Shown piece after piece: positions 4,131-61,990 of a stretch of DNA of 64,000 nucleotides. This DNA comes from the human T2T-CHM13v2.0 reference genome, Homo sapiens: the NCBI RefSeq assembly GCF_009914755.1, contig NC_060927.1. One strand, given 5' to 3'. The translations under genes were made by a program, and so were the position numbers. The notes under the pieces are model-generated. The model was not told the DNA's origin. It saw only the letters and a list, made by a program, of their open reading frames with translations, and did no database searches. Position 1 is the stretch's first letter. Every line of letters starts with the position of its first letter.

Positions 4131-5319
4131 CTGAACTGTGTAGCCATGGGCCAGTGGTTTGTTTTTTCTAAGATCCAATTTTCTCATCTGTACAATGGGG
4201 ATAATAATTTCTGCCCGAAAAGGCTGTAATGAATATTGAATGATATTTTCTCTGTAAACCTTTTTTTTTTTAAGTCACAGTGCCCAGTGATTAATACTAA
4301 ACATTCAAAAGACGGTATTATTATTGTTATTGTTGTCATAATTATTGTGCTAGCTCAAGGGATCAGTGATTGTTCATATCAGTGAGTTTATGGTTGTCTT
4401 CCCCTTCCTCCTGATATCAGGTAATATTAAATTTGTTTATTTATCCACCAAAAATGTACATGACACTTTCTATGTGACAGGCACTATTTGAAGTGCTTTA
4501 CGAATATTAATTCATTTAATCCTCCTAACAACCCTTTGAGGTAGTTGTTATTATCTCCACTAAACAGATAAGAGAACTGAGGCTCTGACAGGTTAATTGA
4601 CTTGCCCAAGGTCACATTGCTATTAAACTGTAGAGCCTGGATTTTTAGCCAGGCAGTGTGACTCTATAGCTAGGGAGCCCAGAGCCAGACTCGCACCTCA
4701 GCATCTCTGAGTAAGGGAGTGTGCTGTAATAGACAGAGGCTGCCTGAATCCTTACTCTTGCACCACCCAGTTGTGTGATCTCGGCAAGCTCACCTACCCA
4801 TTCTAGTCTCAGCACCTTTATTTATATAGTGAGGGTATTACATCTCTCTCTCTGGGTTGTCGTGAAGGTTAGCAATAATGAATGAAGAGTTCTTAGTGTC
4901 TGGCACATAGTACATGCTAAATAAATGTTAACTATTTTTATTATTGTTGCTTCCAGACTCATGTAAGTTAGCATTAGCATAGAGGTAGCCAGGGCATTGA
5001 AGACATAGGTGCCCCATCCTCACCTTCACCAATGAAGGTGTCACTTATTGTAATAGAGTGCTGGTGGAAAGTCAGGAGATTCCATTTCTAGTCCCACACC
5101 TGTGCTAAGAGGCTGCAGCACTTCATGCAAGCATTTAGCATTTCCACTCAAATGAGATAACTGTGATGCCCCTTCTGACTTCTGGTTCTATGAGCAGGAT
5201 GTTGCCCCTTCTGACTTCCGGTCCTATGAGCAGGATCTATATGGTTGGTCACTTACTGAAGGTCTCAGTACCTTGCAGAATTTGATTTCAATCTCAGAGC
5301 CCTGTCCCAGGGTGGGAGA

Positions 5320-5355: not shown

Positions 5356-7651
5356 CTGACAAGGGTTGCTCTTTAGGAAGCTAGCAGTCCAGGAGGAAAG
5401 AGGCCAGCCTGGGTGGGAAGGCCTGACTCTAACTCCCCGCCTGGGTTTAATGAGCCCCAGAGTTCTGTGAGGGCTGCTTTTCACCATCTTTTATTTGGTC
5501 AGACAGGGGGCTCAATATGTCTTTAGTTCTGTGGACTCCCCTCCTGGAGTTGTTGAAGGAGAAAGCTTTTTGCAAATGACTGGAAAGCCTTTTGCAAATA
5601 TAAAGTGCTTATTTAGATGCAAACTAAAAATCCAAGGTGCCTGTGACTCATCTGGTACCTATTGTGCTCGCTGCAAAGACGCGGAGGCTTGCCTGTGTGA
5701 TGGGTGCCATTTGAGAGCCACTTAAAGAACTCCCTGGTGAATGAATTTGGCTGCATTATTCCTGGGCTCCTCTCGGAGGACTCTAATTCTCACCACTTGG
5801 TCGTGTCCTCCTCTTCTGACACATTCTCAGCCCTCTCCCTGAGTTAGTTTGGACCCAGGATGTGATGGGAGGAGGGCTGGCTCCCTGGGGAGGCAAGGAG
5901 CTAAAGGAGTGGGGGCTTGTGCTCCGAGGACTTCCCACTCTGCTTTTTAAAAACGAAATGGCAGCATTAATCCAAGCATCAGAGCTATGCCTAAGAATCT
6001 AATGACAATAGTATTACTTGCTTTCAAAAACCCTTTTATCATTTCCTTTTCTTTCATATCTCTTTCCACAGCATTATTATAGATCAGGGCTTCATGACCA
6101 AAAAATACTGAATCCATTTGGTTAAGTTTGTCAGATTGGTGACTGGCATTGTGTGAAGACCAAAGGTCTGCGTGAATGACTGCATTTTTAATGAATTGAC
6201 CAGCTATTTGTCATCACATGAACAGAATGTAATGCAAACTGCTGTGAAGAATAATGAACCCAGCTTTTCCAAGGCCTGTTTTCATTTCTAGAATAGGAGG
6301 GGGCTCCATTTTGAGGCTTGGTGAGAATTCATTGGCCCATATAGAACTATGAGCCAAGAAGGGAGCTTCGTTTTCGCTTGGGATCTAAGGCATGGCTGGT
6401 CCCTTCAGGTAGGTAAGTGCTGTGTATTCTCGGAGTTTTCCTATATGGGACAGAAGCCAATTCAAAGTTACTCTTGTTGGTTGCGTTTTAAGTGGTAAAA
6501 ACTAGAGGTGTGTTTTAGGCATGGCTGCTGGCCGCAAAATGGTGCTCTTGTGCAAATTAAAGAAAGGCGCCCTCTCCTGGCTGGCAAATCGTAGAAAAGC
6601 ACCCTCTTCTGGCCAACTCTAGGCTTGGAAAAGGGAGTGATAGCTGAATTTCATTTCCACACCCTTGCGCAGGGAACAACCTGCACAACCTCACCCACAG
6701 CCCTAAGTGCATAAGAATATAGGTGGGTGGAGTGTATAGGCACACTCTCAAGAGGGAAGAGAGGAGGCTCAGGAACTACGAGGGCTGAGGGGGCTCTCTT
6801 TACACAGTTCTCCCTCTTCACAAAGCGAACCCTCTCCCATTCTCTGACGTCCTTTCCGAAAGCCTCCTCCCAAAAGTCAAAAGCCTCCTCCCTTTCCTCC
6901 TTGGAGTTCTCTCCCTCCCACTTCCCCTTCCGCCTCTTCTCCTTCTCCCAATAATATCATCCATCCATCTCATAGCTCCAGCAGGTGACCCAAATAAGAT
7001 CTGCCATTTATTGAGAATTTATCACATTGTGCTAAGCTTTGACACACATTAACTCATTTCATCTTCACAATTCTTAGGTACTGTTGTTATCTTCAATTTC
7101 CAACTTCTTAGAGTATTTAAGGAATTTGCCAAAGCCACACCACTAGTACTGGGCGGTGCCAGGATTAGAATTCATGTCTATTTGACTCCAAGTTAGTAAT
7201 CTTAAGCTTTGTGCTAACCTCCCTAAATCTCCAACTACATCCCTGCCTTCTCCCCTGAGTTCCAGATCACATTACTTCCTGGATAGTCCACTTGTTCCTA
7301 TTATGCCAGATGTTAAAAACCAAACCATTAAAGCACCAAATCGTCTCGACATGGTGATCTCTTCTTGACAGCATCTTTCTCCTGGAATCTTGTGTTCTGT
7401 TTGACTCCTTTCTCTTCCTAATCTTTCATATTCAAGAGGTTGGTGTTTACAGACCTTTTGCCGTTTTTTTTTTCAAAATTTCCCCTACTTTTCCTTTCTT
7501 GTTTCCTCCTATTTATTTTAGGATCCTATGATCCCTTACCTGAAATTCTGCTGCACTTTCTAACTGGTCCTTCATAGCACTATCAAAATCATTCCCTTAG
7601 AAGTAAAGCCTTACTCAAAATCCCTCAGTGCCTCCTTGGCCTATTGAATAA

Positions 7652-9240: not shown

Positions 9241-10725
9241 GAATATAATTGCATAAGTCTGTAAACATACCAATATAACATTGAATTACACACTTTGAGT
9301 GGATGAATTGTGTGGTATGTGAGTTATATCTTCATAAAGCTGTTTTAAAAAGTGAAGAGTTGGGGATTTTAGAATATTTTTAGCTCTAATATCTAAGTCT
9401 TTTGTGTAATTTCTAGACATTTAGTACACATTTTCAGGAGTGCATTATTTGCAGACATAGAGGACTGCAGCTGGTTTGCTTTATTATCATTACCCCAAAC
9501 TCTTCTACAAGACCTAGCTCCTGATCACCTGTGACCTTCCCTGCTGTGCCCATTACAGAGTCTTGAACAAAGAGTATTCAGCTGAATTCAGTGGTCCCTG
9601 TTTGAAGGTAGCCAATGTTTATACCATAAAATAACAGTACCTAAGATAATACATAAGATAATAACAGTACCTAAGAATTGTGAAGATGAAATGAGTTAAT
9701 GTGTGTCAAAGCTTAGCACAATGTGATAAATTCTCAATAAATGGCAGATCTTATTTGGGGTCACCTGTTGGAGCTATGAGGTGGATGGATGATATTACTG
9801 GGAGAAGGAGAAGAAGCGGAATGGAAAGTGGGAGGGAGAGAACTCAGAGCAGGAATGGGAGGAGGCTTTTGACTGGCAGCAAGGGCCATAGGCTTGAAAG
9901 TGACCTCCTTTCCCCCAGGGCTCTCAGTGAGGCTGGTGATGTCCCAGGGGAACCAGGCAAATCTCAGGCTCAGGCAGAGGAAAGGGGAAAGAAGAGAGGA
10001 AGACAAAAGGAGAGGGGAAGGGAGAAACAGAGGGACCCAGAGCAAGGGTGGTGAGTCCAGGTGCTCTCAGGGATAGAAAGCAATGTTACTCAGGCAGAAC
10101 ACACAGAGAGAGGAGTCAAAATCATAGCAATTCACCCCAGCAACCAAAATGTAATTTTAAAAAACATACTATACTTGCTTCTCTAAGCTCTATGAGAGAA
10201 ACATATAGATCACAGCCATGCTTTCTAAAATTGCCTTTCTCCCCCACTTCTCTCCTCTCTCCCCCTCAAAAATTATCCCTACACCTGCCCCTCTTTCTTT
10301 CTCTTTCTCTCTCCCACCTTCTCTCCATCTCTCCCTTCAACAAAAACAAACAAAACAACAACAGAATTTCCTACCAACCCCAGTCAGCTCACCTTTCCTC
10401 CTTCTCCCCCTCCCTAATGGGAAGCTTTCCTTCCTATTAGGAAGAAAAAAAAAACCCCAAAGGATGGTGGAAAAGCAAAACCAGAATCCTCTTCAGGGAG
10501 CTGGAGGAGAAGAAAGGCCAGGAAAGCTTATAGGGTCGTTATTTCCCACCTGTCGCAGGGGTTTCTTCTCACCTGCAAACCATACTTTAAAAGAAAAAGA
10601 GAGGAAAGAAAATGTTCCAGTGTCAAGTTCTACTTGGAGGTGACCCCAGTACCCTCAAGTGCACAATCTGTCTCTCCCCACTTCCCCAGCTTTTGGGCCA
10701 CCTGGAAGGGGAATTGCAGCCCTAC

Positions 10726-10838
10726 CTGTCTATGCTGATGGCACAGAGATTAAGGATGCTGGCTGTACACATCATGACATCCAGGGTGACAAAAACATCA
10801 CAGCAAATGCGGCTGAAATTCCAGACTCCACCTGTCAC
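10726..10838 (-). CDS. DRD3: DRD3 second coding exon (113 nt, codons 91-128, ECL1/TM3 up to the DRY motif)
   Basis: Manual translation [37 protein letters not shown](R), including the aminergic TM3 Asp. Acceptor cccAG|GTG at 10839/10838 and donor AG|GTAGGG at 10726/10725. Phase 0 join with the preceding exon. Not shown in the ORF track. Confidence 0.97.
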
Positions 10839-11479: not shown

Positions 11480-14400
11480 TAAGTGATAACTTCCTCATAG
11501 ATGCTCAGCTGGTGGTAAAAGGACTTCGGTGACTGCCCGATGTGTACATTGTGCCAAAACTGTCTCTCTGAAGTCCTTCACCCAGTAGAGAGCTCATCAT
11601 GCACTCAAGAAATAAGCTAAGAACACATTTTTCATAAAATTTACCTCCAAAGTAAAAATCTATCTGGCTTCAGCTTGTAAAGCTTAGAAACATTCTGAAA
11701 CAACATTTATGGGAATCTATGTAAAATAAGTCTGTGCCAATGTGACTGCCTTCAACACTCTCCCTCCCCACCCACATCCCAAAAACCAAAAGTGGGGAAA
11801 AGGGCTGGATTCTCTCCACTACTCAGAATTCATGAGGATGGTTTCAACCTCCTCATGCATCTATCTATACATGTATTTCAAGCTCCATAACATCCTCTGA
11901 GTAATGCTTACAGTCAGGAATTTATATAATATCATTTATACTCTAGTATATTTCTATTTATTTTTGAAACCTTTACATACCCTAATTGAATCAGGAAGAT
12001 GTGTCAGGGAGATTGACACTTTTAAAATGTCCACCAAAGGCCACTCATGGACCGCGAGGCTTTGTGCAGTTACCAGCTTCTTTCCTGGGGGGGTGGGCTG
12101 TCATTCTTGGGGACCCTAGTTCTCGGGGAGAAACCTGCCAGGCTTTGTGCCTCTGGCTGTAGCTGAGTATTCACAATACCGCTCCTGAACAGGCCCAATG
12201 GCCATTTAAGAGGAAGAAAGAGTGAAAAATGGTACAGTAGCCTCTGAAGTAGCTTCCCAATAAGAAAACAGATACTGACCAAATGACTGTGCATAAAGAT
12301 AGTGCTATTCCTTCATCTGGATTTTCTCATCCAAGGATCTTCTTATATGACCAGGTCACTTTAGTGTTCATTTCTGTTTTATCCCAATAAAATAAGGTCC
12401 TAAAAGGCCGTCTTTCCTTCCCTGTCCCTGATAACTTCTTCCCATTGGATTTATTTCTTTTTTTGCATCTCATTTTATTCCTGTGCTTGGTCATCTCCAG
12501 ACTGTTTTGAGAAACCCTGACCAATGATTTTTTGTTTAAAAGCAACAATGAAAATTAAAACTAGTGAAGAAGTCAAATCCAGTTATGGATTTACTGTCTC
12601 TCTTTTAGTTTGACCAATTGGCTCTATATAAATAAAGGCTGAATATGAATTTATAGGAATTCTGAGAATAAAAAGCTTTTAAAAGATTGAGACATAAGAA
12701 TTCCGATCTAAAGAGTCATAATAACACAATGATTTAGGGGAACCAAGAGAATAAAAGAAGGTTTTCTTCATTACATAGGACAGTTGCATACTGTAAAAGC
12801 GTCTTGCAAAAGCTGATTTTGTATACTAAATTTTATTTCAATATTATATCTACTCTGCAGTTAATGTTTTAAATTGGGTAAAAAAACACTTTTTGGCATA
12901 ATTGTGAGCACATGTTTGTTTGTGTTTTGGGCTAGAGTAGGTGAGAAAGGATAGTTAGGATAACAGCAAACTTCAGTGTTTGCTGGATATTCATTCATTC
13001 ATGCACTTGTAGAGCAAATACTTGTGAAGCTCTTAGTACTTGGTTTGCAGCAGTGTATGTCATGTGTGTTGAGAGGTTTTACAAAATGTACTACAGGGCC
13101 TATCCTTAAAGAATTTACAAGATAACTGGAGAAGTAAGGTATTCATCAATAAAATACTAGAGATCATCATGATATCCTAATATTGTTAATAGGAATTAAC
13201 ATTTATTGAGAATTCACTGTACATGTGTTACCAACCCACATGACCCATTCCAGGAATTTCTATAACTTTGAAACTTCAGACTTTGAAAACTGAATTTGTT
13301 TTTATTGTATGTGTTCTTAAAGCTTTTTGAAGACAAGTTATACATTTACTTGATAGGGGATGGAGTTATTGTTACTTAACCAACACCAACAGGAGCAGGA
13401 AGATTTACTTGTTTGCTGCTGCACCCCCAGCTCCCAGAGCAGGGCCCAACCATGAAAATATATTCTGAAATAATAAATGACCTCTGACATAATCTGTCAT
13501 AATAATAGCTAACATTTATTGAACGCTTACTAAGTGCCTGGTGTTCTGCAAAGCACTTTACATACGTCGCCTCTATTGCCGATTATAATTCTATGACAGA
13601 GGATTATTATCTTCATTGCAGAGGAAGAATCTAAAAGCTTAGAAAGAATAAGCACTTTGTCCAAGGTCACAGGGCTAGTACAGGGAGACAGAGCATTGGA
13701 ATGTAGGTTGTTACACACCCTGCTATAGGGAAGTGTTAGGTGAGGAGGGGTAGTTGTTGGAAAAGGGATGGAAGTGGGTAGATACTAGGGGAAAGAAGAA
13801 AACCAGGTGTTCCTCAGGGATTTTTGTGTGACAGACCATATCATCTCCTTTCTAGGGAAAGAGACACTCTCCTGATTGCCTCTATCCCAGGGTTCAAAGA
13901 ATAGTGCAAGAGACAGTGGTAAGTGCTGCCTTTGGGGTTGGTGAAAGTACACAGACAGTTTTATTTAATACCCCTCCTGCTTAGCCCCCAAAGGACAAAG
14001 CCCTCAAGCTGTTCTCTGGCTTCCAGGCCCCCAATGGCCTGTCATCCCATTCTGGCTATCCTCTTTTCTTGTCTCCTGATTCTGCCATGAAAATTCTCAT
14101 TCTCTCCTTGATTTCAGCTAAGAGTCAAGAAGAAAACAATCTGATTAGCTGATTAAAATAATTCCCACTAAGGTGCCATCACTTAGCCTTCCCTGGAGCT
14201 TACTCATTAAAATGAGTCTCTAATTGGTGGGACTTGTAATGAATTTTTTTTTTTTCTATTGACATCCTCCATATCAAGCAACAAATAGTAAGGGATCAAT
14301 AAAGTGCATCTAGGTGCCAAGAATATGCTGGTAATTCTCACACATTTTCTCATCACAACCTGAAGAGGTAAATGTGATTTTTAACTTATAGGTAAAGAAA

Positions 14401-14816
14401 TGGAGACCTGGAAGGGTTGAGTAATTTGCCAAATGGAGACCTGGAAGGGTTGAGTAATTTGCCTAAGGACACATAGCTTGTAAAAGGAGCTAGGATTTTG
14501 ACCCCTTTATATTACCATTACTCTTCCTGCCTCTCAAAGTATAGTGGCTTGCCTCTTCAGAGATGTGTACAATTTAACTCTATTCTAATATCATAGGAGG
14601 TAGAAGAGTTGGTGTGTGTCCATCCATTACCCCTATAGCCATGGTCTAATGAGTGCCCAAGATATGTCTGATACTTTGCTTGGGCGGGTGTATTGAAACA
14701 AACCTGTTTTTGTTCCCAGGATCTCAGAATACAATGTGTGCCTATTACCAGAAGTGATGTGTGAATGGGTATGGGTGAACTGAGGGCCCGGGAGATAAGT
14801 ACTTAAAAAACAGCTA

Positions 14817-23930: not shown

Positions 23931-24296
23931 TGCTGTGGTCTCGGTGTTTGTGTCTCCCTAAATTCATATGTAGAAATCCTAATTCCCAATATGATGGTAT
24001 TAGGAGGTGGGGGTCTTTGAGAGGTGATTAGGTTATGAGGGCAGAGCCCTCATGAATAAGATTAGTGCTTTTATAAAAGAGACCCAGAGAGCTAGCTAAT
24101 CTCTTTCACCATGGGAAGACATAGTGAAAAGACAGCCATCTATGAACCAGAAAGCAGGCCCTCACCAGACACTGAATCTTCTGGTGCCTTGATCTTGGAC
24201 TTCCCAGCCTTCAGAACTGTCAAAAATAGATATCTGTTGTTTATAAACTACTCAGTTTATGGTATTTTGTGATAGCAGCCCAAAAGGACTAAGGCA
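23931..24296 (+). mobile_element. MLT1A/MST-type MaLR LTR
   Basis: tgctgtggtc...gagccctcatgaataagattagtgc...gatagcagcccaaaaggactaaggca. Confidence 0.82.
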
Positions 24297-25390
24297 CCCT
24301 CTACTGGTTATGCCTCTAACCTCTATAGAATGATGTTGTAACCTCCCACAGTGCCAAGGAGAAGGTCCACTAAGTTTACAACCCTGTCTAGACCACACTC
24401 AGGGAATTCTCTACCCAACTGCTCAGAGCCTGTTTCCAAGACATCACGGGTCTCATTCTAAATCTCTCACTCTGACGGGAGACTGTGCCATAAATGTGTA
24501 GGGTTCCTGGGGCCAAGTGGTGGCTTTCAGTTAGAGCTCAGACAAATAGATTCTATGTAGCCTGAGGTTGGGAGAGAAGAGGCCAGGGTCCCTGAAGCAG
24601 ATTAGGGGTGGGGGCCCAGCTTCTCCTGTATGATCACATTTTGTATGGAATTTTGAAAGGTCCAGGAATCTTAAATTCAAACTTGGCCTTCCATGTTGTT
24701 ACGAAGGTGTATTTGTCAAGGTGGGAGGATGAAACATTTTACTCAATGGCTTGTTGGTTACAACTTTAAAATATTTAAGCATGGTACATATAGACCTTTA
24801 TGGGAACTCTCTCTTCAGGCCTTGGCAAAAGTAGAGGCTGACTTGGTGGCCAGAATTTGCCCTCAAGCCAGGTATCTGTAGCTCTCCCTTGATTAGGAGA
24901 CCGGCCTAATCATGGCTGTCATTTTGTACCTCACTTTGAAATGTTTCAGCCTGAAATATGAAAGAGTTAAAATGAACAAATAATTGGGAAAGGGTGACAA
25001 ACTTGGAATGAATTTAGAGAATTGTTTAAAAAAATTGTCCTTTATCTTGGCACACTGTTTGCACTCAATGTATTTTAAAACATAATAATAATTCTTGATA
25101 ATAATTATAATTTTCTCATTATTCAGAGGAGGGCAGCCGCTACCCTGGAGATAGCACCGCTGCTGCCAAGAGCTTTTGGAAAAATACAATGCTTTCTGAT
25201 TGTTCAAGGATATTCCCACTTTTAAGGCAGGCTGAGGCCCAAATGTCTTCCCTTTCACAACTGGGCCACTTTGGAACACAGTGGCCAGAATCCCTCTTTT
25301 CTGGGGTCTGCAACTGGTGAATAATGTCTTAGCCTCCTCTCACCTGCCACGTAAGAGGGAGGCATAAAACCTTAGGATACTTGTTACTCT

Positions 25391-26788
25391 TTTGCTGGAC
25401 TTTTTACTCTGCCAAGAGGTTTGACAGCTACCTAAAAATAGTATAGCTGAATGCCAGTGGCTAATTATACAAAGGGAAACCCTCAACTCTGAAAATCAAT
25501 TCTGAGCCTGATGTTGGAATCACAGTTGCATGGATTTCTGATTTCATATTTATTTTTTCCACATCTGATCTTAGATCCTTTATAGCAGCAGGTGGGTTAA
25601 ACCGTGATTGTTCAGGTAGTTTCTGATGAGTTGTGGATGTGGGAGATGAAAGCAAAGATGAGTGAGATGCTAGATTACTCTCTATCCCTCAGCTAATTGT
25701 TTCAACTTCCTCCCTGCTTAGATTTTTTTTTTTTTTTTCAAACCAGAGTTGCTTATATAACACAGAACTGAGCTGGGCTTTCTTCTTTCTTTTCCCCTCT
25801 GTTAGATATGCTAACAGATAGGAAACGGGTCTCAGGTAAGAAGAAGCAAAGAGCCTAGAGAATTCATTAACTCAATCACTCTCTAAGTAATTTACAATGA
25901 TAGGCTGGTTTCCTCATCAGCAAAATGGAGATAATCATATCCATTCCATAAGGTTATTATGAAGACTAAATGAGATTATATACATGAAGTTTGGCACTAC
26001 TGACAATTTGGGCTGAATAATTCTTTGTTGAGGAGGTTGTCCTGTGCATTGTGGGGGGTTTAACAGCATCCTTTACATATACCCACTAGATGCCAGTAGC
26101 ATACCCCTCCCCACAAGTTGGGACAATAAAAAATGCTTCTAGACATTGCCACATATCCTGGAGCGGGGGTGCAAATTGCTCTCCCCATGAAGAATCATCA
26201 CTCTAGCATAATGTCTGGCACATAGCACTAGAAATATAGTTGCTTTTATTGTTAAGAGGAAAGTGGGAATAGGTGAAGAGTTAAATAAGCTGCAATTGTA
26301 AAGTATCTAGTGAACTTGGAAATGATGACTGACATTCATGGTGGCATTCATGCTTAAACATTCATGAAGACATTCTTAATGTCATCATGTCAACATTCAT
26401 GATGACATGCTTAAACATTCAGGACGATATTCATGATGGCATTCATGCTTACAAAATCTAAGCAGGGAGGAAGTTGAAACAATTAGCTGAGAGACAGAGA
26501 GTAATCTAGCATCTCACTCATTTTTGCTTTCATCTCCCACATCCACAACTCATCAGAAACTACCTGAACAATCACGGTTTAACCCACCTTCTGCTATAAA
26601 GGATCTAAGATCAGATGTGGAAAAAATAAATATGAAATCAGAAATCCATGCAACTGTGATTCCAACATCAGGCTCAGAATTGATTTTCAGAGTTGAGGGT
26701 TTCCCTTTGTATAATTAGCCACTGGCATTCAGCTATACTATTTTTAGGTAGCTGTCAAACCTCTTGGCAGAGGAAAAAGTCCAGCAAA
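25391..26788. repeat. Long inverted repeat: arms 25391-25726 and 26453-26788 (336 bp each), 726-bp spacer
   Basis: Base-by-base reverse-complement comparison gives 5 mismatches and no indels. The ORF track shows mirrored ORFs 25461-25655(-) and 26524-26718(+) differing by one residue. Confidence 0.97.
25990..26205. mobile_element. MER20-like DNA transposon nested in a MIR (~25880-26255), inside the inverted-repeat spacer
   Basis: ggcactactgaca...ctgtgcattgtgggg...cccactagatgccagtagc...tctagacattgcca; MIR core resumes after it. Confidence 0.72.
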
Positions 26789-27292
26789 CAGTGTTAGGAG
26801 TTAAAAGTGGATAGGAGGTAAAAGAATAGAGAAGGCAGAGAAATAGAAGATTACTCTTGGCGTCAGTCTTTTAAGATTCATTACATATAACACTACTTAC
26901 ACATTTTAATGAGCTTTTAAATGCCTTACAAAGTATTGATTTATCTTGGTCTTTATAGTTTGTTCTGGCATCTCTTAGAGTGAGTGCATAACCTATTTAA
27001 AAAGGCAGGGGAACAGAGAGTTGTCAGGTCCCCATCAGTTATGACATTTGTCCTGCTTTGCTGATGTTCAATCCCTCAGTGCTGAATAACAGTCTTCCTG
27101 AAACATTCGTGGGGTTCCTCCTTAGCACCTCATTAAGACTTACAGAGTTTTAATTATTTGTTCTCTTTCTGTAAGAAAACAAATGAAGATGAAGACAACT
27201 ACATCTGGGCTACTACTGTGTGGCAAGTATGAGTACTTTACATGCATTTTAATACTTATAGCAGCATGGAAGTTGACGTTAGTCATTCCCAG

Positions 27293-27684
<392 letters not shown>

Positions 27685-29631
27685 TCATTTCACAGATCTC
27701 TGGCTGTTGCTACATCTAATCTTTTACTCAGACGACTCCTGACCACCAGTCGCCAGAGCTTTTCTGGTCTGGGCTGTAATTCGGACTTGCTATATTGCCT
27801 GATAAAATTAATAATTATAGCTAAAATTTATAAGCATTATCATCATTCAACCTCACAACAACCTGATGAAGAAGGTAAGCACTATTATCCTATCAAGTTT
27901 TCTAGATAAAAAAGGTGAGTCACAGAGAGGTTAAATATCTTGCTGAGATCACAAACCAGTAAATGATGGAGTTGATTCAACCCAAGATTTGTCTGATTCC
28001 AGAGCTCATGTTCTTAACTATGCCACTTAACTATGCCACTTTTTGGGGTGAGGCAGACAAATGTGAAATGGGTACTAATTTTACAATCTCACTTGTTCAG
28101 AGTATGTGAACATGTCACATCATCTGACTAGGCTTGGTGAAGTAATGCAGGTGCACACTGCTCATAGAGCCAGTGGGAGTTACATTGTTATTATTATTAG
28201 AGATAGTCTTTAGCATTTCTATGCTACTTTCTTCTTGCAAATTGCTGCCTATTTTCCTGAAAAAGATTCACAAATGGATTGCAATACATAGCATATTTAT
28301 GTATTTGGGCACATTTACATTGTTGGTAAATGTACAGAGAAAAACTATTGCTGGTTACTGAGTAGCTAAGATAACAGTTTTTTCCCCTCATTAAACCTGA
28401 CTAGTAAAGCAGAGCATACTCACTTTCCTTCACAACCTCTAGAGACTGAGCATCCTACCATTCTAATCAGAGATAAAATGGGGAACTCAGCAAATAAATC
28501 AATCAATAAGCAAATATTAATTGATGACAAACTTCAATGCATTAGAAATTGAATCTGATATTGAGTAGAAACTGTTCGGTATTTGCTTTAATGTATATTC
28601 CATAACAAATAGCCTTCTGTATGGATGCTTTAATATTAGGCACCCATTTGGATACTGTCAGTATTTTCCTTGCTCAATACCCTTGCTCACTGCTAGCCAT
28701 ACAGACCCTTGAAAATATTCAACTACAAATAAATGAGTGCCGAGTAAGAATCTTTCTCACATTGTCTCTACTTCTCCTTGACTATAAGACATCCTAATGC
28801 CATGTCAAGCAGTGGTTCTTCACTCTTATCTAAGGACAGATATTTTACAGACCTTTTAGTATCAGTAAGCAAAGGCTTCACCTATAAAGTGAAATAGTCA
28901 TGCACAATGAGTTTAGAATCCAAGTTTCACTTTGCTATTGCTGCATTATTATTCATGCATGTATTTTGATGGTATTCAATTAAACTAAATGCATGAACTG
29001 GAACAAATACCTAATTGCAATGACTTCTGTTGCCCCAGTAAGCTACAGCAAGTAATGGAAGTCTCACAATTAAATAACAATACCCTAAAAATCATATACC
29101 ATCATCAAAGGAAACATACACAATCATCATCTCAAGTACTACATATCTCTGCTGGGAATAATTGGATTCTGACTTAGAAACAGCCTGACTTTAAATAGAC
29201 CATTGAAAATAGTGCCTCTCCAAACCTTCAGCTCTGAATTGCCAGGGTGCTGAATTGAGGAGTTTAAAATAACAGACCCTTACAATTAAGTAAAATCCTT
29301 AAGAGGAATACAATCAACTTCCATACAAATCCTAGAAATAATAACAGCTTTTTGTTTTCTATCTTTTAATTCTTCCTTGATATAGCTTCTAGAGCCCACA
29401 AGGATACAATTTTGGGGGAAAAAATAAAAGAAAAAGGAATATAAAAGGTTTCTGCTGTCCAACCACTTAGAAGAAAAAGAAAACCATTTCCTCAGGGCTT
29501 TGGTTTTTAAATAAGAGTGGATATTGAGTTTTAATGCATATTTTTAGAGATCCACAGAACCCCAAGCTGATTAAATAACCTTGAGGAAAATACTATGTCC
29601 TAAATTAGAAACGAAAAGAAAAATTACTTAC

Positions 29632-53009: not shown

Positions 53010-53820
53010 ACAAATCAACAAGCAAAAAACAATCCCATTGAAAAATGGGCAAAGGACATGAACAGACACTTCTCGAAAGAAGACACACAAGTGGCCAAAA
53101 AGCATATGAAAAAATGCTCAATATCACTAATCATTAGGGAAATGCAAATCAAAACCATGGTGAGATACCATTTCATACCAGTCAGAATGGCTATTACTAA
53201 AAGGTCAAAAAGTAACAGATGCTGGAGAGGTTGCAGAGAAAAGAGAATGCTTATATACTGCTGGAGGGGATGTAAATTAGTTCAGTAATCTTATTACTGG
53301 GTATATATCCAAAGGAATAGAAATTGCTCTACTGTAAAGACATTTGTATGAGTATGTTAATTGCAGCCCTATTCACAATAGCAAACACATGGAATTCACC
53401 TAGATGCCCATCAATTGTTGACTGGATCAAGGAAATGTGGTACGTATACACCATGGAATGACATGCAGCCATAAAAAAGAATGAGATTATGTTCTTTGCA
53501 GAAACGTGGGTGGAGCTGGAGGCCGTTATCCTAAGTGAATTAATGCAGGAACAGAAAACCAAATGCTGCATGTTCCTACTTATAGGTGGGAGATAAACAC
53601 TGACTACACATGGACACAAAGAAGGAAACAGTAGACACCAGGACCTACTTAAGGGTGGAGGGCGGAAGGAGGGTGAGGATGAAAAAAACTACCTATTGGA
53701 TATTATGCTAATTACTGAAGTGACAATTATCTGTACATCGAACTCCTGTGACATACAATTTACCCATGTTAACATACCTGCACATGTTCCAACCTAAAAT
53801 AAAAGTTGGAAAAAAAGAAA
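53010..53820 (+). mobile_element. L1 3' fragment (old L1PA/L1PB) within older L1M sequence extending to ~55270
   Basis: ORF 52965-53288 contains [19 protein letters not shown]...[18 protein letters not shown] (L1 ORF2 C-terminus), followed by 3'UTR and A tail. Confidence 0.88.
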
Positions 53821-56800
53821 AAAAATGCGTTTCATATGACTAAAAAAAAAAAATTGGTTTCATTTTCCTTCGACAGGAAGAACTCCCTTTATACTTTCTT
53901 AACAGTGCACATCTGCTGGCAATGAATTATTTTAATTTTCTTTCTTTTCCTTTATTTCTTGAAGGATATTTTTGCTGAATATAGAATCCTGAGTTTATAT
54001 TTTTCTTTTGGAACTTTAAAATTATTCTCTCTTCATCTTTGGTATTCAGCAGTTTGACTATGATGCTGCTAGGTATGGCTTTGTTTGTATTTATTCTGCT
54101 TATAACTGAATTGCCTAAGGTGGAATCTGTGAATTTATGTTTTTCACCAAAATTGGGAAAATTTTGGCCATTACTGTTTCAAAATTTTAATGCCTCATTT
54201 TCACACTTTTCTCCTTTAAAGATTTCAGTTGCATGTATGTTAGGCCATTTGATATTGTCCCATGGGTTTCTGAAAATCTGTTCATTTTTTTCAATTTTTT
54301 TTCTTATTTCTATTTTTTCAGATTGGGAAATTTCTATTAACCTATCTCAAGTTAAAGGATTGTTTTGTTTGTCATCTCAATTCCATTAAGTCCATTCAGT
54401 AAATTTTTTAAATGTTTACTTTTTTAGTTCTTGAGTTTACATTTGGTTTTTAAAATATAGTTTCTACTTCTCTGCTGAGATTTCCTATCATTTTATTCAT
54501 TGCGATTGTTTTTCTTTACCTCATCAAGTATAGTTATAACGGTTGCTAATCCAACATTTGGGTCATCCTGGAGTTGGTCTCCATTGATTACTTTTTCTCT
54601 TGAGAACAAGTCAACTTTTCTCATTCTTTGTATGTTGAGTAATTTTGCATTTTATTCTGGACATTGTGAATGGTATAGGTGTGGATTCTGCTGCATTCTT
54701 CTAAATATTTATTTCACTGGCATTGTTTTATTAGGCAGTTGACCTGATTGCACCCCCAAGATGCAAACTTTGCTTTTTAGGTAGCAACTCAAATCTCAGT
54801 TCATTTCTTTTGTCTTTATGGAATTTGCTCCACAGAGATATGGTTCAGGAGTCAACCAGAGATTTAGGCAGAATTTATACACAGCATGTAGAGCTTCTCC
54901 TTTCTGACTGCTTTTCTGAGATTCATTCCTTAATTTTCAATGGCTGTGGTTTCCCCAGGACTGTCCTCTCATTCTTCAGACTAGATGGATTATGATTTTC
55001 TAGTAGTTTTAGCTGCTTTGAGCAGCTGCTGACTGCAGCTTGCCTTCAGTTGCTGACTGCAGCTTGCTCAACACCATTTGAAAAACGGGAAATTCATCGT
55101 GTGCCTATTCCTTTTTTACAAGTTTTAACATTCCTCCAGAGTCTACCTGCTGTTATTCACTCTCCAAGGCTTTCAGATAGTTTACTTCTTATATTTTGTG
55201 CGAAGTTTATAGCTGTTATCTGTAGGAGAATCAGTCTGGTTGGACCTTGCTTTGGCATACCAAAATTGGAAGCAAATTCCTTTCTTTTTAATCGCAGAAA
55301 TTTTATAAAGGTCCAGTAATTTTTCTTGCTTACTCATCTTTAGTTTGTCAACATATGCTTGACAATTATTAGCTTACTGTAAAATATGAGTTGGAATGGG
55401 TTCTTTGACATACTGTGGTTGTCCCTTTCTCAATACTTCAGTCCAAAACAAAGAAGTATACACTATTTAGTTATATTGGAAATCCATGTTACTAGGGTAG
55501 AGATGCTTAAAGTCTCAAGGGAGTGGAAAAGCAGCTAGAGCCAGGAGAGAACTGTAGAGAATTCTGCCTCTGTGCCAAAGTATGTCTCTTCTATATATGA
55601 ATTGGGATAACCCCGGCCATGTCCCTGATTTTTGCCTGACAAGGTCCCTGATTTTTGCCTGACTAGGAGACCTTTACCAGATGTTATATTAGAACTAAGC
55701 CTCTTCTATACTCAGCTCAGTGAAGTAACTAGAAATAACTTGGTAATAAAACCTGTCAATACTGAGTTTGAACTCTTGTAAATAGTGAGTTGCCTATCAC
55801 TGGAATCATTCAAGTGGGAGCTTGATGATCATTCCTCCTTTATTATTTTTACCTCTATACTTATTAAGAGGGGTGGAGGGAGAATATATCACTGCTTTCC
55901 CCTTGGCACTCAATAGCTATATGTTGTATAAACAAATATTTATTGAATTCATTGCATGAATGAATTAGAAGAGAGTTTTCTCTATGGTATGAGAAGGCAT
56001 ATTTTGCATTCTGAGGAGAAGAAATTAAAAAGTTAGGGTAAATATTGTCAAATGGTCTTTAATTCAGAATATTTTGGTGGGAGGAATCATGGATAGTGTA
56101 TTAGAATATTTTAAAAGAAAAGCAATGATTTGATTACAATCAGTTAACATGAAATAATCAGCACATGAAACTGGCTACCACAATAGCTGTTTTAAAATAA
56201 TTTCAAATTATCCCTGTGGGAGAAATTTGAACTAAGATGGAAAGGCTCATGGCAGGCCCTCAGAACCTAGGTGAGTTCATATGTTCAACTTAGCAACTTT
56301 CTTTTGCTATTTCTTTATAATCTTAAAGAAAAGGCTACCTGTTCATTTGTCACAAAATTTGAACAGGTGTTCCTTTGCCTTCTAGTCTAGCTTATCCGAA
56401 ACAGCACAAACAGATTGTCCTAAACAGCACACAAATGAGTCTTATTTCCTACCCAGGAGTGAAAGAACAGTCTTGGTCTTCGTAAGTCCTTAGTCATGAC
56501 AATGCTTCTTTCTTTATTCTCAGGAATCAGTGTGCTCTATTTAAAGATATTGGCACAGTCTTACTGGCTTTTCAAAACTATTTGTAATGTAAGGTGAACT
56601 GGACACTAGAATGAATCTGGAAGATTTTAATTGCTCTAGGAATTTCATCTAGTTCTCACAGTGACTTCAATCATGGCTATTATCCAGTTTACACCTCCCA
56701 ATTCTGCCCTCACTTTATCATACGAATGAAGCAAGACTGCATAAGTAGAATGGCATTCACACAGGAAGCATTCATTAATGTTTGAATGAAGAAATGGGAA

Positions 56801-61354: not shown

Positions 61355-61990
61355 TTTCCAATTCTGTGAAGAAAGTCAGTGGTAGCTTGATAGGGAGAGC
61401 ATTGAATGGAAGACAGTGTGGCGATTCCTCAAGGATCTAGAACTAGAAATATCATTTGACCCAGCAATCCCATTACTGGGTGTGTACCCAAAAGATTAGA
61501 AATCTTTCTACTATAAAGACACATGCACATGTATGTTTATTGCAGCATTATTCACAATGGCAACGACTTGGAACCAACCCAAATGCCCATCAATTATAGA
61601 CTGGCTAAAGAAAATGTGGCACATATGCACCATGGAATACTATGCAGCCATAAAAAAGGATGAGTTCATGTCCTTTGCAGGGACATGGATGAAACTGGAA
61701 ACCATCATTCTCAGCAAAGTAACACAAGAAGAGAAAACCAAACACCACACGTTCTCACTCATAAGTGGGAGTTGAGCAATGAGAACACATGGACACAGGG
61801 AGGGGAACATCACACACTGCGGCCTGTTGAGGGGTGGAGGGCTGGGGGAGGGATAGCATTAGGAGAAATACCTAATGTAAATGACGAGTTGATGGGTGCA
61901 GCAAACCAACATGGCACATGTACACTTATGTAACAAACTGCACGTTGTGCATGTGTACCCCAGAACTTAAAGTATAATAATAATAAAAAA
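61355..61990 (+). mobile_element. L1PA 3' fragment with 5' inversion (twin priming)
   Basis: Antisense ORF2 piece 61355-61407 joined to a sense 3' end 61408-61990; 18-bp TSD agaatagatcatatgatt (61337-61354 / 61991-62008). Confidence 0.9.

What the first reader, a model, noticed from the sequence alone, without database searches (positions are those of the whole stretch)
25391..26788. 336-bp near-perfect non-Alu inverted repeat in DRD3 intron 1
Seen: two arms with 331/336 identity and no indels flank a 726-bp spacer, 2.4 kb upstream of the first coding exon's acceptor. The arms do not resemble any repeat I recognise, and the spacer holds ancient MIR/MER20 sequence, so this is not a TIR transposon. 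Inference: it is either a recent inverted duplication or an older one homogenised by arm-to-arm gene conversion. It could mediate a recurrent ~0.7-kb micro-inversion. In pre-mRNA it would fold into a duplex far more perfect than Alu pairs (ADAR substrate, endo-siRNA source or splicing modulator).
Basis: partly seen in the sequence, partly recalled or inferred. Interest (0 to 1): 0.72.

Follow-up and report, generated by a model that had tools for sequence, protein, structure and literature searches.

The report
Catalogued local inverted duplication in DRD3
A 336-base stretch inside the human dopamine D3 receptor gene has a near-identical backwards copy 726 bases away, likely left by an ordinary DNA copying error; the pair is already listed in a published table of about 200 such repeats, and no function is shown.

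Summary
The repeat is real: arms 25391-25726 and 26453-26788, 331/336 identical, no gaps, 726-bp spacer. An own-genome search finds only these two copies. It is already catalogued. Barak et al. 2020 (PMC7006430) Table S8 lists a chr3 hg19 pair with the same arm and spacer lengths at 98.21%, ranked 62nd by identity of 197 long near-perfect inverted pairs in human pre-mRNAs, with zero read coverage. Its anatomy fits the known 'inverted duplication' class (<1 kb copied within 5 kb; PMC4617611). Added here: a 132-bp patchwork of short self-copies ends exactly at the right arm's inner breakpoint, and the left arm's inner end runs into T16. Together these point to fold-back template switching. A second, more diverged repeat with templated junctions lies 16 kb away in the same gene. 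Arm divergence of 1.5% suggests ape age unless gene conversion reset it. The pre-mRNA is predicted to form a 336-bp duplex 112 nt after an alternative exon's donor. Editing, splicing effects and inversion polymorphism are unshown, and no primate orthologues were available. Verdict: ordinary, probably neutral.

The parts
25391..25726 (+). Left arm; likely the template (original) copy
   Evidence: Polarity is inferred only from the patchwork lying at the other arm; no dispersed repeat spans either of its junctions.
25723..25738 (+). T16 tract; its first four T are the inner end of the left arm (likely priming microhomology)
25727..26452 (.). 726-bp spacer (loop of the predicted duplex)
25873..25990 (.). 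Old dispersed repeat fragment (MIR-like; name recalled)
   Evidence: nhmmer matches to other window sites and 1 of 20 tiles, E 1e-4 to 0.03
25985..26197 (.). Old dispersed repeat (MER20-like; name recalled)
   Evidence: Genome-wide matches at 75-82%; tile L019 match E 7e-13
26321..26452 (.). 132-bp patchwork of short direct and inverted self-copies ending at the right arm's inner breakpoint; likely templated-insertion scar
   Evidence: 81% covered by recurring 8-mers versus at most 39% in 2,000 shuffles; reached by 8 of 3,968 background windows, all simple repeats. TRF period 12, 62% matches. Single match in the genome.
26453..26788 (-). Right arm; likely the inserted inverted copy; 5' arm of the predicted duplex in the DRD3 pre-mRNA
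26901..27168 (-). Annotated alternative 5' exon of DRD3 (context); its donor lies 112 nt before the duplex in the transcript
   Evidence: Annotation supplied with the finding; canonical GTAAGT donor and pyrimidine-rich acceptor seen

Best explanation
This is a local inverted duplication, likely made in one replication or repair accident by fold-back template switching, and probably neutral. Inferred steps: (1) synthesis stalled near 26320 and made a 132-bp patchwork by repeated short re-priming; (2) the 3' end, finishing in four A, annealed to the T16 tract about 730 nt back and copied about 335 nt in reverse; (3) it returned to the original template at 26789. Five differences have accumulated since, 1.5% (95% CI 0.5-3.5%). 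That is about 2-18 Myr at 1e-9 per site per year or 5-35 Myr at 0.5e-9 (rates recalled), if no conversion occurred. When DRD3 is transcribed the arms would pair into an intronic 336-bp duplex that ADAR would probably edit as a by-product and that is removed with the intron.
For: Shown: two copies only. Shown: the patchwork abuts the breakpoint exactly and is extreme against shuffles and background. Shown: T16 at the other inner end. Size and distance match the commonest class of sequenced 'inversions' (54%; <1 kb within 5 kb; not typically retrotransposed; PMC4617611 passages). Multi-template insertions in both orientations are described for MMBIR, including as human germline variants (PMC8421209 passages), and for Pol theta in Drosophila (PMC2895639 passages). 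A second repeat in the same gene has 13- and 17-nt templated junction pieces (null 0.6% and 0.2% of 3,000 draws), and there a dispersed repeat crossing one junction marks original versus copy. The locus is 1 of 197 similar pre-mRNA pairs.
Against: No orthologue was available, so the insertion, its polarity and its age are not shown; a past flip of the spacer would swap which arm is the copy. The patchwork could be an older degenerate minisatellite that provoked the event. None of the 4 main junctions shares more than 6-7 nt with the adjacent arm (null median 7), and no continuity was found between the sequence before the patchwork and after the right arm (shuffle P=0.21). A 4-nt microhomology within a T run is weak evidence. 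Such repeats are not frequent: 0 in 20 random 10-kb tiles against 2 in this 64-kb window. Neutrality is a default, not a result; long near-perfect pairs are depleted even in pre-mRNA.
Confidence: 0.7

Rival explanations
1. The duplication is much older than its 1.5% divergence suggests, and arm-to-arm gene conversion keeps the arms alike.
For: The neighbouring repeat has 11 of its 12 differences in its outer 115 columns and a 97-bp perfect run (P=0.009, post hoc), so homogenisation may act in this gene. The hg19 pair is 330/336 against 331/336 here, so at least one arm site differs between the two assemblies.
Against: Mismatch spacing in this repeat is compatible with uniform (P=0.12). The patchwork keeps exact 15- and 16-bp internal repeats, although arm-to-arm conversion cannot reach it. 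The one-site difference may be an ordinary SNP.
Confidence: 0.14
2. The duplex has acquired a regulatory role: it alters use of the alternative 5' exon whose donor lies 112 nt upstream, or acts as a heavily edited ADAR-recruiting stem in DRD3-expressing neurons.
For: Predicted duplex with 331 Watson-Crick pairs, 2 G-U pairs and 3 mismatches including one A-C, -622 kcal/mol. It lies close to a canonical donor. Several pairs of this class are heavily edited where they are expressed.
Against: Zero coverage of both arms in the 15-tissue pool; uninformative rather than negative. No Rfam family over the arms. No paper on this repeat appeared in four DRD3 search listings. The duplex covers no annotated splice site and ends 2.4 kb from the coding acceptor. 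Editing alone would not show function.
Confidence: 0.07
3. The arms mediate a recurrent 0.7-kb inversion of the spacer that is polymorphic in humans.
For: Most repeat-mediated inversions recur (PMC6748972 passages), and validated ones have repeats as short as 140 bp (PMC13629690 passages). Small inversions between near-identical arms are easily missed.
Against: Not among 612 candidates merged from five long-read, Strand-seq and optical-map studies (plain-integer hg38 format checked; hg38 position derived from recalled coordinates). The 24 NAHR inversions in PMC6748972 have repeats of 654 bp or more, and the longest perfect run here is 182 bp.
Confidence: 0.07
4. It is a transposon with long terminal inverted repeats, a retro-copy, or an assembly artefact.
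For: Long, near-perfect inverted arms and an adjacent homopolymer.
Against: No other copies. The spacer holds much older repeats. No target-site duplication is visible in the outer flanks. The T run is at the wrong end for a poly(A) tail of the arm. The same arm and spacer lengths occur in hg19.
Confidence: 0.02

Closest known systems
Barak et al. 2020 (PMC7006430) Table S8: 197 long (>300 bp), tight (>96%) inverted duplicated sequences in human RefSeq pre-mRNAs
   Same: This locus is a row of the table: chr3 113893262-113893598 / 113894324-113894660, 336 bp, spacer 726. It ranks 62nd by identity.
   Different: The table gives 98.21% (hg19) against 98.51% here, names no gene in the row, and says nothing on origin, junctions or the neighbouring exon.
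'Inverted Dup' structural variants of 1000 Genomes phase 3 (PMC4617611)
   Same: Stretch under 1 kb, inserted inverted within 5 kb of the other copy, not retrotransposed.
   Different: Those are polymorphic. This one is in two reference assemblies and 1.5% diverged, so it is probably fixed (not tested).
MMBIR/FoSTeS and Pol theta templated insertions (PMC8421209, PMC2895639)
   Same: Inverted copy of a nearby template plus multi-piece junction insertions in both orientations.
   Different: The copy is longer and farther from its template (336 bp, 726 bp) than the events MMBSearch calls (template within 100 bp). The enzyme cannot be told from sequence.
NAHR inversions between inverted repeats (InvFEST set; PMC6748972, PMC13629690)
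   Same: More than 90% identical inverted repeats flanking a short unique segment.
   Different: Shorter repeats than the 24 genotyped NAHR cases; no inverted allele on record in the catalogue searched.

Membership tests
Long near-perfect pre-mRNA inverted pairs (Barak 2020) | >300 bp, >96% identity, both arms within one RefSeq transcript | tested here: met
   listed in Table S8
Local inverted duplication (1000 Genomes 'Inverted Dup') | Copy <1 kb within 5 kb of its source, inverted | tested here: met
   336 bp, 726 bp apart
Local inverted duplication (1000 Genomes 'Inverted Dup') | Not a member of a transposon family, not retrotransposed | tested here: met
   2 matches genome-wide, a lower bound; no target-site duplication
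Local inverted duplication (1000 Genomes 'Inverted Dup') | An allele or ancestor lacking the second copy | not testable with these tools
   No primate genomes or population haplotypes held
MMBIR / Pol theta templated insertion | Multi-piece locally templated insertion at a junction | tested here: met
   132-bp patchwork at the right inner junction; that it arose with the event is inferred
MMBIR / Pol theta templated insertion | Microhomology at the switch points | tested here: inconclusive
   Four A/T at the inner junction; the outer junction cannot be judged without the ancestral allele
TIR DNA transposon / MITE | Dispersed family of copies with shared ends and target-site duplication | tested here: not met
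Recurrent NAHR inversion | Both orientations segregate | not testable with these tools
   Only a catalogue look-up was possible, and it was negative
ADAR hyper-edited duplex | A-to-I clusters in RNA from the arms | tested here: inconclusive
   Published pooled GTEx coverage is zero; duplex predicted
Endo-siRNA or miRNA hairpin | Small-RNA reads or a known RNA family | tested here: inconclusive
   No Rfam match over the arms; 5 of 5 matches lie in the nearby Alu. Reads not available.

The most novel reading that the evidence does not exclude
An ape-lineage copying accident placed a 336-bp near-perfect RNA stem 112 nt behind an alternative 5' exon of DRD3. The stem now tunes that exon's inclusion through ADAR editing in striatal neurons, making it a lineage-specific regulator of dopamine D3 receptor output, possibly with a hidden inversion or conversion polymorphism that SNP studies miss.
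Probability: 0.06. Interest if true: 0.65.

Novelty: already known. Interest (0 to 1): 0.15.

Why it matters
As it stands it matters little: it is one of about 200 catalogued near-perfect intronic inverted pairs and a clean fossil of template switching. Two such fossils of different divergence in one gene make a small teaching case for how these repeats arise and decay. It would matter if the stem changed DRD3 5' exon choice or hid an untagged inversion in a much-studied neuropsychiatric drug target. The published editing survey could not test this, because the arms had no read coverage.

Tried and rejected
(1) Base rate: 0 non-family inverted repeats (>=80 bp, >=85%, spacer <=8 kb) in 20 random 10-kb tiles. 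160 positions were drawn and only the first 20 were analysed, so this gives only a loose upper bound. (2) Finding the original arm from a repeat crossing a junction worked for the second repeat but not for this one. (3) Purine-rich continuity across the putative insertion looked suggestive but was not significant (P=0.21). (4) A 6-nt hairpin between patchwork and arm is within chance (null median 7). (5) A distant template for the patchwork: only the self match. (6) Conversion tract in the main arms: P=0.12. (7) Look-ups with coordinates derived from recalled positions: none in PMC13629690 (3 files; the 'chr3' control failed because chromosomes are written as bare numbers), PMC13721702 (2 small files), PMC4617611 (1 file held, which may lack the inversion table) or PMC2603318 (retrotransposon-caused inversions only). 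The last three are weak negatives. (8) The Porubsky 2022 inversion paper and the Kronenberg 2018 ape variant paper were not held under the ids tried, so their tables may bear on age and polymorphism. (9) PMC11794170 (part 2 of 8) and PMC5829575 (passages) gave background only.

Full report
Observation. The inverted repeat is as described: arms 25391-25726 and 26453-26788, 336 nt, five mismatches, no gaps, 726 nt apart. It is the strongest self-match in the window; the other long inverted pairs listed are 71-87% complementary and mostly fall in the annotation's masked repeats. A search of the whole genome with the left arm gave 2 matches from 2 candidates, both here (a lower bound). The spacer contains old dispersed repeats, which I call MIR-like and MER20-like from recall only. 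Rfam gave 5 matches in 24000-28500, all in the Alu near 27300-27600.

Already catalogued. Barak et al. 2020 (PMC7006430; main text parts 1-3 of 5 and supplement file 1 parts 3-4 read) list 197 inverted pairs longer than 300 bp and over 96% identical within human RefSeq transcripts. One row is chr3 113893262-113893598 / 113894324-113894660, length 336, 98.21%. Chromosome, arm length and the 726-bp gap match, and the position agrees with my recalled hg19 position of DRD3. So the repeat is also in GRCh37 and is not a CHM13 artefact; that haplotype has one more mismatch (330/336). It ranks 62nd by identity. Its editing cells are NA in the 15-tissue pool, meaning zero coverage, so the survey says nothing about editing here. 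Only 20 of the 197 pairs were expressed above FPKM 0.01.

Anatomy at the junctions. The left arm's inner end runs into T16 (25723-25738); the right arm carries only four of the matching A. Directly inside the right arm lies 26321-26452, which TRF reads as a poor 12-bp repeat (62% matches) and which holds exact 15- and 16-bp direct repeats and an 11-bp inverted repeat. Recurring 8-mers cover 81% of it, against at most 39% in 2,000 shuffles. Only 8 of 3,968 overlapping background windows (20 random tiles plus this window) reach that level, all simple repeats. It matches nowhere else in the genome. Such multi-piece insertions are described for MMBIR and Pol theta repair (PMC8421209 and PMC2895639, passages). 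Against this reading: none of the four main junctions shares more than 6-7 nt with its adjacent arm, and the sequences on either side of the putative insertion show no significant likeness.

A natural comparison in the same gene. A second non-family inverted repeat lies at 6875-7093 / 9655-9874 (94.5%; 2 matches in the genome). A dispersed repeat crosses the inner end of its left arm, marking that arm as the original. It has 13- and 17-nt templated pieces at 2 of its 4 junctions (null 0.6% and 0.2% of 3,000 draws). Its differences cluster in the outer half (97-bp perfect run, P=0.009, post hoc), which warns that arm identity can understate age. In 20 random 10-kb tiles there were 0 such repeats, too small a sample to call this gene a hotspot.

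Mechanism. Best reading (0.70): a fold-back template switch primed in the T tract copied the left arm in reverse, leaving the patchwork at the entry junction. The two arms, T tract and patchwork are shown; the order of events, polarity and neutrality are inferred. This matches the 1000 Genomes 'Inverted Dup' class: 54% of sequenced inversions, nearly all under 1 kb and within 5 kb, not typically retrotransposed (PMC4617611 passages). Divergence is 1.5% (95% CI 0.5-3.5%), giving 2-18 Myr or 5-35 Myr under two recalled mutation rates. Mismatch spacing gives no sign of conversion (P=0.12).

RNA. On the DRD3 strand the arms are predicted to pair along their whole length: 331 Watson-Crick pairs, two G-U, and C-U, A-G and A-C mismatches. 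The duplex energy is -622 kcal/mol against -268 to -364 for three inverted Alu pairings. It starts 112 nt after the canonical donor of the annotated alternative exon 26901-27168 and ends 2,389 nt before the first coding acceptor. From general knowledge of ADAR, editing is likely wherever the intron is transcribed, but editing of an intronic duplex is not by itself a function. Four searches with DRD3 (listings and abstract starts only) showed no paper on this repeat.

Inversion. The locus is not among 612 repeat-mediated inversion candidates (PMC13629690; passages, supplement search and one part of Table S1), using an hg38 position derived from recalled coordinates. The 24 NAHR inversions of PMC6748972 have repeats of 654 bp or more (passages), though validated cases go down to 140 bp. 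Other look-ups were weak negatives, and two key papers were not held. Polymorphism is therefore unlikely but not excluded.

Verdict. Real, already listed, and of a known kind. What this work adds is the junction anatomy, the second repeat and the adjacent alternative exon. Interest 0.15. The regulatory reading has probability about 0.06 and would deserve about 0.65.

Noticed in passing
window 6875-7093 / 9655-9874: Second non-family inverted repeat in DRD3 (220 columns, 94.5%, spacer 2,561 bp; two copies in the genome). It has 13- and 17-nt templated pieces at two junctions, the left arm is marked as original by a repeat crossing its inner end, and its differences cluster in the outer half. 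Its right arm ends about 850 bp from the coding exon 10726-10838.
   Followed up: yes
window 26901-27168 (-): Annotated alternative 5' exon with canonical donor and acceptor, 112 nt from the repeat.
   Followed up: partly
window 26447-26452 (-): On the transcript strand the patchwork begins with a donor-like GTAAGC immediately after the 5' arm; a possible cryptic donor created by the insertion, not scored.
   Followed up: no
window 25391-26788: The hg19 pair is 330/336 identical against 331/336 in this assembly, implying at least one variable site within the arms.
   Followed up: no
window 5167-5236, 14398-14463, 28013-28041, 55621-55667: Short near-perfect two-copy tandem duplications (units of 36, 33, 13 and 23 bp).
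   Followed up: no
window 53283-53698 / 61462-61877: 416-bp gap-free direct repeat at 74.5% identity, longer than an Alu; probably two copies of an older interspersed repeat.
   Followed up: no
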